A stretch of DNA of 64,000 nt from Eledone cirrhosa. Taxonomy: Eukaryota. This document shows, in pieces, positions 9,608 to 58,097 of the stretch. Numbering within the stretch: the stretch's first letter is position 1; every line of letters starts with the position of its first letter. The notes beneath the pieces are model-generated. The model did not search any database and had not been told where the DNA came from. It worked only from the letters and a program-made list of their open reading frames with translations. The position numbers were made by a program, and so were the translations under genes. The stretch is from the NCBI GenBank assembly GCA_964016885.1, contig OZ024751.1:22320001-22384000 (forward strand). Direction: 5' to 3'.

Positions 9608-10034
9608 CTAGGGCGGGTAAAATTCCTGAGATCCATGGACGAGTTCTCTCCAGCGGTCTCTGTCCCTCATTATCACTGCCATGTCCTGCGTCTCCAACAG
9701 ACCAGTGTCTGTCCTTAGGGCATCAACATACGTTAACCTTGGTCTTCCTCTTCCAGTGTGTCCATGTAGGGGCTCCCACAGGAGCACTGAGTGCAATGTC
9801 AACTCTGGATGTTGGTGAACATGTCCAGCTAACCTCAGTCTCCTCTGTGTCACTTTTGAGCTGACTTTTGGGATGCTCCCATACAGCTCTGAGTTTTTCA
9901 TCCTCAGTGTATACTGATTAATGTTCAGAGCCATCCTCAGCATTCTCGTGTAGCACCCATCCACCATCTGAGTGAGTTTCTTGGTCAGTGTCCAAGTCTC
10001 AGACCCGTACAGCAGCACAGACTCCACTACAGCA
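9608..10034 (-). mobile_element. RTE-clade LINE 3' fragment
   Basis: VESVLLYGSETWTLTK..RRLRLAGHV..GRGRPRLTYVD..DRDRWR C-terminal RT motifs; flanked by (TA)n. Confidence 0.85.
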
Positions 10035-10238
10035 ATATATATATACATGTATATATATGTATATATACATGCAATTATATACATACATATAGATATATAC
10101 GCATATAAATATATTTATCATAGACACACACACACACACACATATATATACATACGTATATAAAGTGTAAATGTAAAGGAGCTTAATCTTTTAAGCATAT
10201 GAGATGAATTTGCAGAACAGGTGATCTGAACTGAATAA

Positions 10239-32649: not shown

Positions 32650-33295
32650 ATCATCATCATCATCATTTTACGTCCGCTTTTCCCTGCTTGCAAGGGTGGG
32701 ACGGGTCTTATTCAGCACAGCATCTCTCCACTCGTCACGGTCCCTCGTCATCTCCACCGTGAGCTTCAATGATCTGAGGTCTGTTCTCACCACCTCCGCC
32801 CATGTTTTTCGTGGTCTACCTCTACCACGTCTCCCTTCAACTGGCATTTCCTGGCACTTCTTCACCCATCGGTCATCCTCCATGCGCATCACATGTCCAT
32901 ACCACCTCAGTCTCCTCTCCCGTACACTACATTCTATCCCTCTCAGACACAGTTTCTCTCTCAACACATTTATGCTGGGTCGTTCACGCACATTTACACT
33001 GCACATCCAACGGAGCATGCTTGCCTCATTTCTCTCCAGCCGTTGCATATCCTCTGCAGTTGCTGCCCATGTCTCACTACCATGCAGCATCACGCTCCTC
33101 ACACAGGCATCATACAACCGGCCTTTCGTACGCAGGAGAAACCCTTCTTCGTCAACAGAGGAAGCAGCTCCCTAAACTTCTTCCAACCCGTCCTTATTCT
33201 AGATACTATGGCCTCGGAACACCCTCCTCCCATGCTAATCTGATCTCCTAGGTACCGGAAGCTATCCACCACTTCTATAGCGCCCTCTTGCATTT
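32650..33295 (-). mobile_element. RTE LINE 3' fragment, frameshifted
   Basis: IEVVDSFRYLGD..WKKFRELLPLL..YDACVRSVMLHGSETW..RLRWYGHV..GRGRPRKTW; (TGA)n tail. Confidence 0.92.
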
Positions 33296-33371
33296 GAAAA
33301 ATGTGTTTATCAGTGCGACTATATATATATGTATATAGTTTAATGCTTTTATATATATATATATGTAACAA

Positions 33372-33445
33372 GCTGTCTGATGATGACACAACACTCGCAC
33401 ACAGAACAGTGGTGCCAGTGTCGTCACTGAAATATATATCACAGC
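33372..33445 (+). ncRNA. Hammerhead motif with imperfect stem II junction
   Basis: GCUGU-CUGAUGA-UGAC..GUCA(CU)-GAAA-UAUAUA-UC^ACAGC. Confidence 0.55.
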
Positions 33446-33512
33446 ATTATTATTAAAGGACTTGAACATCTGAAACTACTTCGCTTTTCCTTATTCTATA
33501 TGTGTGTGGTGT

Positions 33513-55273: not shown

Positions 55274-55286
55274 TATATAAATATAT

Positions 55287-55482
55287 ATAGGAACGAGTAG
55301 GACCCCGACGGCTGAGCTCAAGCTGTTTCGACGGCTAATTCTGGACAGAATTAGCCGTCGAAACGGCTTGAGCTCAGCCGTCGGGGTCCTACTCATTCCT
55401 ATTACCCACTCTACTACCCTAAGTATTGAGTACTTTGGTGCGTTATGGTCCACCTGGTTCCTTACCACATTTCCTTCGTTAT
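55287..55482 (+). mobile_element. Fold-back element with hammerhead 3' half (sister of 5750)
   Basis: Arms 55287-55342 and 55347-55402; GAAA-CGGC-loop-GCCG-UC^GGGGUCC. Confidence 0.7.
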
Positions 55483-55653: not shown

Positions 55654-55732
55654 AATATAAGTATGCATGTATATATATAAATATAAGTATGCATGTATAT
55701 ATATAAATATAAGTATGCATGGCAGATGGGTA

Positions 55733-55777
55733 AACGGTGCTGATGATAGCTAACAAGCTTGAAACTAGTACATCGTT
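55733..55777 (+). ncRNA. Minimal type I hammerhead, copy 1
   Basis: AACGGUG-CUGAUGA-UAGCUAACAAGCUU-GAAA-CUAG-UA^CAUCGUU; predicted cut after 55770. Confidence 0.8.
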
Positions 55778-56198
55778 CCTGTGTCAGTGTTGAACAAAAA
55801 GGTGACGTGGTTGCCTTAACACCGTATGGCATAAATTCAGGCTGTTCAGTTTGTTTACAAACGAACAAAGCGACGTTAGCGCCGCTAAACTGATACGTGC
55901 ATATATGTATGTGTACCTGTATGCATATGTATGTATATATGTATATATATATATATATGTGCATGCTACTGTACGTCTGTATACATATATGTATGTACGT
56001 ATACATGCATACTTACATTTAAGTAAGTGCCATACTAAGAGTGAGAAATGAAATTTCGTTTTCATTTTGTTTCAATTTATCGTTTTCGGTATGCCTGACC
56101 GATTTAACTCACTCAATATGCAAATTAGGCTGCTCAGCCGTTAATTTTCATAAGGAAAGTATATACTTTCGACCGTTCAACTATCTGGCAGATGGGTA

Positions 56199-56243
56199 AA
56201 CGGTGCTGATGATAGCTAACAAGCTTGAAACTAGTACATCGTT
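56199..56243 (+). ncRNA. Minimal type I hammerhead, copy 2
   Basis: Identical to copy 1; predicted cut after 56236. Confidence 0.8.
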
Positions 56244-56556
56244 CCTGTGTCAGTGTTGAACAAAAAGGTGACGTGGTTGCCTTAACACCGTATGGCATAA
56301 ATTCAGGCTGTTCAGTTTGTTTACAAACGAACAAAGCGACGTTAGCGCCGCTAAACTGATACGTGCATATATGTATGTGTACCTGTATGCATATGTATGT
56401 ATATATGTATATATATATATATATGTGCATGCTACTGTACGTCTGTATACATATATGTATGTACGTATACATGCATACTTACATTTAAGTAAGTGCCATA
56501 CTAAGAGTGAGAAATGAAATTTCGTTTTCATTTTGTTTCAATTTATATATAAATAT

Positions 56557-56623
<67 letters not shown>

Positions 56624-56662
56624 AATATATATATAAATAAATATATATATAAATAAATATAT

Positions 56663-56716
<54 letters not shown>

Positions 56717-56864: not shown

Positions 56865-56914
56865 AATATATATATAAATATATATATGTATATAAATATA
56901 TATATATATATGTG

Positions 56915-57545
56915 GGTTCTATAGAAGTGGTTGATAACTTCCGGTACCTAGGTGATCAGATTAACATGGGAGGGGGGTGTTCCGAGGCCATAGTATCTAG
57001 AATGAGAATGGGTTGGAAGAAGTTTAGGGAGCTGCTTCCTCTGTTGACAAAGAAGAGTTTCTCCCTGCGTATGAAAGGACAGTTATATGATGCCTGTATA
57101 AGATGCGCGATGCTGCATGGTAGTGAGACATGGGCAGCAACTACAGAGGATATGCGATGACAGGAGAGAAATGAAGCAAGCATGCTCCGTTGGATGTGCA
57201 ATGTCAATGTGCATGAACAACCAAACATAGATGAGCTGAGAAAGAAACTGGGTATAAGAGGGATAAGTTGTGGTGTGCAGGAGAGAAGACTGAGATGGTA
57301 TGGACATGTGATGCACATGGAGGATGACCGCTGGGTAAAGAAGTGCCAAGAAATCCCAGTAGAAGGAAGACGCAGTAGAGGATGACCACGAAAAACATGG
57401 GCAGAGGTGGTGAGAACAGACCTCAGATCACTGAAACTCACCGAGGAGGTGACGAAGGACCTGTGGCAAGTGGAAAGATTCTGTGCTGAATAGGATCTGT
57501 CCCACCCTTGCAAGCAGGGAAAAGCAGACGTATGATGATGATGAT
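56915..57545 (+). mobile_element. RTE LINE 3' fragment with stops
   Basis: Same family as 32650-33295: IEVVDNFRYLGD..HGSETW..RLRWYGHV. Confidence 0.92.
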
Positions 57546-57717
57546 ATATATATATATATATAGAAATGGAAGTTCAGCATAATCAAAGCTCTGGCTGCAG
57601 TTAAGCTAACGAATGCAATCAGAATGTGCATCTAAGCACTCAATAAGGTATTTTACCTTAGAGTAATAACATTACGTTTAGACAGTTTTGCAAATATATA
57701 TAAATATATATATATAT

Positions 57718-58097
57718 GAAGGCACATGGCTTAGTGGTTAGAGCATTGGCCTTGCAATCGAAAGGTTTTGAGTTCAATTCTCAGACCGGGTGATGTGTTG
57801 TTTCCTTGAGCAATTGCTCAAGTTTATTCAGCTGTAGAAATGAGATGATAGGGACTGGGGTCCCTATCATTCCACTGCAAAGTGGTCGTGGAGGTGCCAT
57901 GGCAAAAAAAGCACCCAGCCCACACTGTAAAGTGGACGTGTAGGCACCACGGAATAAAAAGCACCCAGCACTCACTCTAAATGAGGTTGGTGTTAGGAAG
58001 GGCATCCAGCTGTAGAAATCAAGCCAGAATCAGTTCCTGTCCCACCCTTGCAAGCAGGTAAAAGCGGACGTAAATTATGATGATGATGATGATGATG
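57718..58097 (+). mobile_element. SINE family A
   Basis: Matches 127-460 with one extra internal repeat. Confidence 0.85.

What the first reader, a model, noticed from the sequence alone, without database searches (positions are those of the whole stretch)
55720..56546. Tandem hammerhead pair defining a 466-nt retrozyme-like, potentially circular RNA
Seen: two apparently identical 361-bp direct repeats, each starting with a minimal type I hammerhead (7-bp stem I, CUGAUGA, GAAA, palindromic ACUAGU stem III, GUA^ site). Cut sites at 55770 and 56236 are 466 nt apart. There is no credible ORF, the flanks are TA-rich, and short inverted copies of an internal motif (TAAGTATGCATG) sit at the 5' junction. 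Known: minimal HHRs with a palindromic stem III occur in Penelope pLTRs and metazoan non-LTR retrozymes, cleave as dimers, and retrozymes yield circRNAs. Inference: a young non-autonomous retrozyme, antisense to the host gene. Caveat: the first pair of stem II is a U-U mismatch.
Basis: partly seen in the sequence, partly recalled or inferred. Interest (0 to 1): 0.85.

Follow-up and report, generated by a model that had tools for sequence, protein, structure and literature searches.

The report
Hammerhead retrozyme with two-ended Penelope footprint
This is a very young copy of an abundant 466-base non-coding repeat carrying a hammerhead (predicted self-cutting) RNA motif, a new member of the known animal "retrozyme" parasites, and its many genomic copies end at two fixed points in a way that suggests a Penelope-type jumping-gene enzyme likely copied them from both ends of a DNA cut, probably off an RNA circle that has not yet been observed.

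Summary
Observation confirmed: exact 361-bp repeats, period 466, two hammerheads. The pair is 1.77 units of a genome-wide tandem family: 27,416 hammerhead cores, and this exact subvariant at 10 loci, so no artefact. Two stem I pairs covary; U·U at stem II also occurs in a cleaving axolotl retrozyme. Added here: arms end in (TA)n at two fixed unit sites, A (~250) and B (~310). All 28 of 28 head-to-head pairs use one of each, arms run up to 14.9 units, and arm lengths are not mirror images. This is the Penelope 'tail', likely from priming on both cut strands. 5' ends are modestly enriched just after the cut site (15 of 94, 7.4 expected), a hint of cleavage in vivo. Not shown: cleavage, transcription, circles, the partner enzyme. 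Some arrays have mixed units, so linear multimer templates remain possible. The scan reported 468-472-nt relatives before on other DNA. New member of a known kind.

The parts
55720..56546 (+). Main arm, 1.77 units (unit position 416 through to 310; position 1 = 55771), 3' end at site B
   Evidence: no mismatch to the 466-nt unit
55720..55786 (+). Hammerhead 1 with extended stem I; core 55740-55770; predicted cut after 55770
56186..56252 (+). Hammerhead 2; predicted cut after 56236
55771..56236 (+). Predicted 466-nt monomer (linear or circular RNA)
   Evidence: circular fold z -8.3 against 40 shuffles; -4.5 without the microsatellite hairpin
55888..56020 (+). Long self-complementary TA/TG/CA microsatellite hairpin (about unit 118-250); length varies between copies
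   Evidence: fold
56481..56487 (+). Site A (unit 245-251; also 56015-56021), one of two fixed 3' end points of arms
56488..56546 (+). Penelope-type tail (unit 252-310) ending at site B, joined to (TA)n
55658..55721 (-). Three inverted 12-16-nt pieces starting at site A, spaced 26 nt with target TA between them: aborted second arm; 2-nt overlap with the main arm
   Evidence: similar short pieces at L197 and L203
55481..55657 (.). Left TA microsatellite target
56547..56716 (.). Right TA microsatellite target; a target-site duplication cannot be resolved in it

Best explanation
It is a very recent insertion of a protein-free, hammerhead-bearing 466-nt tandem repeat (a non-LTR retrozyme) into a TA microsatellite, likely made by a Penelope-like reverse transcriptase-endonuclease acting in trans on a predicted self-cut and probably circular RNA. 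Steps: (1) multimer arrays are transcribed (inferred; promoter unknown); (2) hammerheads cut, probably as pairs through the palindromic stem III (predicted; supported by covariation and indirectly by 5' ends near the cut); (3) monomers are ligated to circles (inferred from other animals); (4) the enzyme nicks both strands of (TA)n and primes one strand at site B and the other at site A (end points shown, enzyme inferred); (5) each cDNA runs for 0.1-15 units across the cut junction (arm structure shown); (6) the two 5' ends are joined through 0-6-nt microhomology or short inserts, giving head-to-head arms with a tail on one (junctions shown). Here the B arm ran 1.77 units and the A arm aborted after at most 16 nt.
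For: Family size: 10,718 exact and 27,416 relaxed cores, controls 0. Ends: 932 B-to-TA junctions against 4,817 read-throughs, 561 forward-strand A junctions, and only 3 at an internal TATA control site. 28 of 28 divergent neighbour pairs are A/B, p 3e-9. 57 of 94 arms exceed one unit, maximum 14.9. Units within an arm and across arms differ by a median 0.0%, between loci 4.0%; a private variant is in 6 of 6 units on both arms of L190. Stem I pair 18-54 occurs as GU 43, UG 12, AU 6, CG 2, other 3 of 66. 5' ends at unit 1-40: 15 of 94 against 7.4 expected, p 0.006; 1 of 4 later arms ends at unit 2. RT + GIY-YIG elements with long open frames are in the genome and show the same two-end pattern. 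In vitro, a Penelope-like protein cuts and extends both strands from two internal sites (PMC11167929).
Against: No cleavage, transcript or circle was observed. Mixed arrays: period-2 units in L162, a recurring three-unit pattern on both arms of L168, and one shared CpG change in each arm of L031 do not fit copying from one monomer circle. No partner found: the unit has no homology to the flanks of 50 GIY-YIG loci other than nested older copies; best tail similarity p 0.017 among 7 comparisons. The number of covarying pairs (2) is not above shuffles (2.5) and stem II has no compensatory change. The lowest-energy co-fold of two hammerhead regions is not the double hammerhead, and inner stem I pairs have probability 0.18-0.28 in the circle. 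Eight of nine Xenopus dimers did not cleave in vitro (bioRxiv 2026.07.22.740005). The 5'-end windows were chosen after seeing the data (7 tested). Integer-unit arm lengths, expected of a circle, are not significantly enriched (p 0.07-0.13).
Confidence: 0.6

Rival explanations
1. Same element, enzyme and two-site priming, but the templates are linear, partly cleaved multimer transcripts of donor arrays; circles are rare or not the intermediate.
For: Mixed unit patterns shared by both arms (L168, L031) and period-2 arrays (L162); multi-unit arms whose 5' ends lie at unit 2-4 (L172, L179, L185, L209), as expected of run-off at a cleaved 5' end; the anole element uses unprocessed RNA in vitro (PMC11167929).
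Against: Most young arrays are uniform over up to 12 units on both arms; a 15-unit arm needs about 7 kb of uncut RNA; dimer or trimer circles, or later duplication, could also give the mixed patterns.
Confidence: 0.28
2. Arrays grow at the DNA level (unequal crossover, slippage) from single insertions and the hammerhead is an inert relic.
For: Period-2 duplication in L162 and microsatellite length changes inside arrays; proposed for vertebrate retrozymes in bioRxiv 2026.07.22.740005.
Against: The youngest subvariant is multimeric at most of its 10 loci with almost no divergence; both inverted arms share private variants; stem I changes are compensated and subfamily changes fall on core position 7 and loop 2.
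Confidence: 0.06
3. The inverted arm arises by fold-back or self-priming of one cDNA, not by a second priming on the target.
For: Self-priming was proposed for head-to-head Penelope structures (PMC3846280); two loci join at an internal palindrome (L044, L063).
Against: Arm lengths fit a mirror copy in only 2 of 38 insertions, the A arm is longer in 17 of 38 (rho 0.23, p 0.17), and junction coordinates differ on the two sides.
Confidence: 0.04
4. The duplication is an assembly artefact.
For: The locus lies in TA tracts and was not checked with long reads.
Against: Same architecture at dozens of loci; identical subvariant at 10 loci.
Confidence: 0.02

Closest known systems
Metazoan non-LTR retrozymes (Cervera and de la Pena 2020, PMC7229834; parts 2-4 of 6 and a word search read, supplement not readable)
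   Same: Short non-coding tandem units, one type I hammerhead each, weak palindromic helix III, self-paired predicted circle, co-occurring Penelope-like elements; U-U at the base of helix II as in axolotl HHR_Amex2.
   Different: Unit 466 nt, slightly above their 150-450 range. The words 'inverted', 'orientation' and 'octopus' do not occur in its main text: head-to-head arms and fixed A/B ends are not described there. Cleavage and circles were shown there, not here.
Animal retrozymes as non-autonomous Penelope-like derivatives (Li, Clavereau, Pollet 2026, bioRxiv 10.64898/2026.07.22.740005; parts 1-3 of 5 read, supplements closed)
   Same: Protein-free hammerhead tandems dependent on Penelope-like elements.
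   Different: Their link rests on co-occurrence and pLTR homology (24 of 57 Xenopus families). Here no pLTR homology was found; the link rests on insertion anatomy.
Penelope-like element insertion structure: inverted 5'-truncated copy and a tail at one end (PMC8557442 and PMC3846280, passages read; PMC11167929, parts 1-2 of 4 read)
   Same: Head-to-head arms, tail on one end only, two initiation sites, AT-rich or microsatellite targets.
   Different: No ORF; tail 59-65 nt against 30-40; both arms can be multi-unit; the one-A-one-B rule is counted here (28 of 28).

Membership tests
Metazoan non-LTR retrozyme | Short head-to-tail units with one type I hammerhead each | tested here: met
Metazoan non-LTR retrozyme | No protein; no LTR arrangement | tested here: met
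   ends fall at varied unit positions. Primer-binding site and polypurine tract were not searched for.
Metazoan non-LTR retrozyme | Many dispersed genomic copies | tested here: met
Metazoan non-LTR retrozyme | Self-cleavage of the RNA | not testable with these tools
   Only indirect: covariation and 5'-end excess after the cut site
Metazoan non-LTR retrozyme | Expressed as monomer circular RNA | not testable with these tools
   Predicted fold only
Type I hammerhead ribozyme | Core CUGANGA, GAAA, UH with stems I-III | tested here: met
   core and stem III were fixed by the search pattern, so their invariance is no evidence
Type I hammerhead ribozyme | G10.1-C11.1 pair at the base of stem II | tested here: not met
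   U-U, kept in 100 of 100 listed cores where it was left free; precedent HHR_Amex2
Type I hammerhead ribozyme | Score above an Rfam hammerhead gathering threshold | tested here: not met
   HH9 18.5 against 52 bits
Minimal PLE hammerhead (Cervera and de la Pena 2014, PMC4209133, passages read) | Helix II 7-8 bp, helix I 4-5 bp, helix III absent | tested here: not met
   Helix II 4 bp, helix I 6 + 9 bp, helix III 2 bp: their 'canonical' metazoan type
Non-autonomous Penelope-like derivative | Inverted 5'-truncated copy with a tail at one end | tested here: met
Non-autonomous Penelope-like derivative | Microsatellite or AT-rich target | tested here: met
Non-autonomous Penelope-like derivative | Homology to the pLTR of an autonomous element | tested here: inconclusive
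   None in 50 loci drawn from 150 scored of 10,596 GIY-YIG candidates
Non-autonomous Penelope-like derivative | Target-site duplication | tested here: inconclusive
   Not resolvable inside (TA)n
Plant LTR retrozyme | Type III hammerhead in LTRs with 4-bp target duplication | tested here: not met
   Type I topology and tandem arrays

The most novel reading that the evidence does not exclude
The family is a natural record of Penelope integration. One enzyme dimer primes both cut strands at two fixed, non-interchangeable sites on a single small RNA circle and rolls round it from each primer, while hammerhead cuts in vivo end some arms. This would explain the Penelope tail and head-to-head structure as two-ended priming and give direct genomic evidence that animal retrozymes move through circles. 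Support: 28 of 28 A/B pairs, 5 of 16 first-pass B arms stop right at site A (p 3e-4, post hoc), and 5' ends are enriched after the cut.
Probability: 0.4. Interest if true: 0.62.

Novelty: new member of a known kind. Interest (0 to 1): 0.37.

Why it matters
The kind of element is known. The value is as a test bed. How Penelope-like elements form their tail and inverted structures, and whether they mobilise retrozymes from circles, are stated as open in PMC8557442, PMC11167929 and bioRxiv 2026.07.22.740005. This family offers about a thousand young insertions with readable ends, a 466-nt template that is easy to make, and two defined start sites for an in vitro assay. The subvariant here is nearly absent from four public runs, so insertions may still be polymorphic.

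Tried and rejected
RNA evidence: no RNA holder listed; the four runs laid are contigs of unknown kind and none spans the locus, so nothing follows on expression. A 1,164-nt contig of run X2 sharing 35 nt at site B looked like a partner; its flank has no match in this genome and was dropped. Partner search through GIY-YIG hits: older retrozyme copies near three loci (L102, L118, L119) are about what chance gives at this copy number; tail alignments were not significant; a repeat with older subfamilies failed on a script error and was not rerun. Rfam microRNA matches are microsatellite noise below threshold. Fold-back origin of the inverted arm was rejected. Pile-up of arm lengths at whole units was not significant. 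L206 carries the marker base but is another subvariant, so 10 loci, not 11. Literature: searches showed no cephalopod retrozyme paper and no count of A/B pairing. Lunse 2017 is not held, the PMC7229834 supplement was unreadable and bioRxiv supplements are closed; these may bear on novelty. PMC8490949: passages only, nothing relevant.

Full report
Observation. Numbering the unit from 55771, the insert is one arm from position 416 round to 310, 1.77 units with no mismatch. It lies between TA tracts. Open frames are short or run through the microsatellite. Minus-strand Ig exons lie on both sides, at 46.4 kb and, beyond the window, at about 71, 81, 102, 105 and 106 kb, with one FN3 exon and one likely transmembrane exon at 13-14 kb. 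The element therefore most likely sits antisense in an intron of one multi-Ig membrane protein gene; that these exons form one gene is inferred. The genome is a 3.0-Gb animal genome; that it looks like a cephalopod is my recall, not tested.

The hammerhead. Rfam gives only a weak match (18.5 bits, threshold 52) and the isolated region folds no better than shuffles, so the case rests on comparison. In 66 distinct copies from young and old subfamilies (72 found, 6 left out as junction-cut or near-duplicate; the core and stem III were fixed by the search pattern), 95.5% of cells pair against 92.9% in shuffles (0 of 500) and 31-43% in slid controls. Pair 18-54 appears as GU 43, UG 12, AU 6, CG 2, other 3; pair 8-62 as UG 26, AU 17, CG 1, other 21. 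The count of covarying pairs, two, is not above shuffles, relatedness inflates the score, and stem II shows no compensation. With position 7 and stem II left free, the common changes in the first 100 listed cores are at core position 7 and in loop 2, and the U-U at the base of stem II is kept in 100 of 100. That U-U is also in axolotl HHR_Amex2, which cleaved 22% as a monomer and better as a dimer (PMC7229834), and in the hammerhead of an autonomous family in this genome. The shape is the canonical metazoan type, not the minimal type (PMC4209133). The palindromic stem III gives a -6.8 kcal/mol duplex, but the lowest-energy co-fold of two regions was a different structure. The unit folds well as a circle (z -8.3; -4.5 without the microsatellite hairpin; 40 shuffles).

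The family. The exact 31-nt core has 10,718 matches and the relaxed core 27,416, controls 0. Older subfamilies of 420-430 nt are 75-85% identical. The window's subvariant is marked by one base: 59 matches at 11 places, one of which belongs to another subvariant, leaving 10 loci with almost no divergence. In the four public runs laid, the other base dominates (626,388 of 627,979 depth in X1). This points to a very recent burst.

Insertion anatomy. In 47 stretches plus the window and later sets, arms nearly always end on the RNA 3' side at one of two places, A (unit 243-255) or B (300-310), and run into (TA)n. Genome-wide there are 932 exact B-to-TA junctions against 4,817 read-throughs, and 561 forward-strand A junctions (the reverse count of 1,283 is inflated by overlapping matches); an internal site with its own TATA gives 3. 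Microhomology to TA alone thus does not explain the ends. Among the 48 B and 56 A ends listed for the first 195 Mb of contig C1, 28 of 28 diverging neighbour pairs within 15 kb were one A and one B (p 3e-9); one further same-strand A/A pair lay 13 kb apart. Of 94 measured arms (8 ambiguous ones left out), the median is 1.57 units, 57 exceed one unit and the longest is 14.9. In 38 two-armed insertions the A arm is longer in 17 and only 2 fit a mirror copy. Central junctions show 0-6 nt of overlap or short inserts, in one case a sixfold repeat. The window copy is a B arm whose A arm stopped after at most 16 nt and was repeated three times; L197 and L203 look similar.

Link to Penelope-like elements. 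An inverted 5'-truncated copy, a tail at one end only and microsatellite targets are published hallmarks (PMC8557442, PMC3846280). The anole protein cuts and extends both strands and starts at two internal sites that bound the tail (PMC11167929). This genome has 10,596 GIY-YIG candidates, 150 scored, including frames of 938 and 1,096 aa with RT. The L108 family has two ends 64 nt apart, and its inverted copy L113 uses one on each arm. No partner was identified: there was no pLTR homology in 50 loci and tail similarity was not significant.

Template. Units differ by a median 0.0% within an arm (191 pairs) and across arms (147), against 4.0% between loci (9,371); the sample is weighted to young arrays. 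L190 has a private change in 6 of 6 units on both arms. This fits rolling round one circle, or copying a uniform multimer. Against a single monomer circle: L162 alternates two unit types (0-2 against 13-15 differences), L168 repeats a three-unit pattern on both arms, and L031 has one CpG change in each arm. 5' ends fall at unit 1-40 in 15 of 94 arms (7.4 expected, p 0.006, one of 7 post hoc windows) and at 427-466 in 5 (7.9 expected); of four arms mapped later, one ends at unit 2. I read this as a modest hint that some templates had been cut at the hammerhead. Five of 16 first-pass B arms stop at site A (p 3e-4, post hoc), which fits collision with an A-primed complex on the same RNA or a stall at the foot of the long hairpin.

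Verdict. A real, young member of the animal non-LTR retrozymes with a clear Penelope-type footprint. Membership as a repeat family and two-site end formation are shown; cleavage, transcription, the circle and the enzyme are inferred. Earlier notes of this scan, read after my reading was set, describe 468-472-nt and 420-nt relatives in the same terms; they are not independent support. My literature searches showed no count of the A/B rule, but its qualitative form is in print and some supplements could not be read. Novelty: new member of a known kind. Interest 0.37.

Noticed in passing
window 55285-55480: A second head-to-head element beside the same TA tract: 59-nt inverted arms about 55344/55345 and an 80-nt tail on the right arm ending in (TA)n. 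The same family flanks L033, L045, L048, L067 and L116, so TA tracts collect several Penelope-type insertions.
   Followed up: partly
window 12046 (-), 12073 (+), 27190 (-): Another hammerhead-like family (CTGATGAGAGCG...GAAATATATA) with a palindromic stem III, in head-to-head form at 12 kb; also in L118.
   Followed up: no
L108 (G000:C1:145869500-145877500), L113, L119: Penelope-like family with a 938-aa RT + GIY-YIG frame; its hammerhead can be read with a U3-A8 core pair and palindromic ACCGGT stem III (my reading); two end sites 64 nt apart.
   Followed up: partly
L110:2275-5562: Open 1,096-aa Penelope-like frame with an inverted pLTR upstream, a candidate active element.
   Followed up: partly
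L041 flanks (G000:C1:5539800-5545200): The unique flanks on the two sides of this insertion are reverse complements over about 14 nt, an inverted rather than direct duplication of target DNA.
   Followed up: no
L173 central junction: Six tandem copies of a 12-nt piece of the unit at the arm junction, resembling iterative templated end joining.
   Followed up: no
window 12308-46416 (-) and G000:C11 beyond the window: Multi-Ig, FN3, transmembrane cell-surface protein gene spanning more than 90 kb.
   Followed up: partly
window 32668-33446, 56900-57573, 9608-10114: Fragments that look like 3' ends of LINE-type reverse transcriptase genes (label recalled, no Pfam hit for the one scanned).
   Followed up: no
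window 57727-57784 (+): tRNA-like match above the Rfam gathering score (32.5 against 29 bits), possibly the head of a SINE.
   Followed up: no
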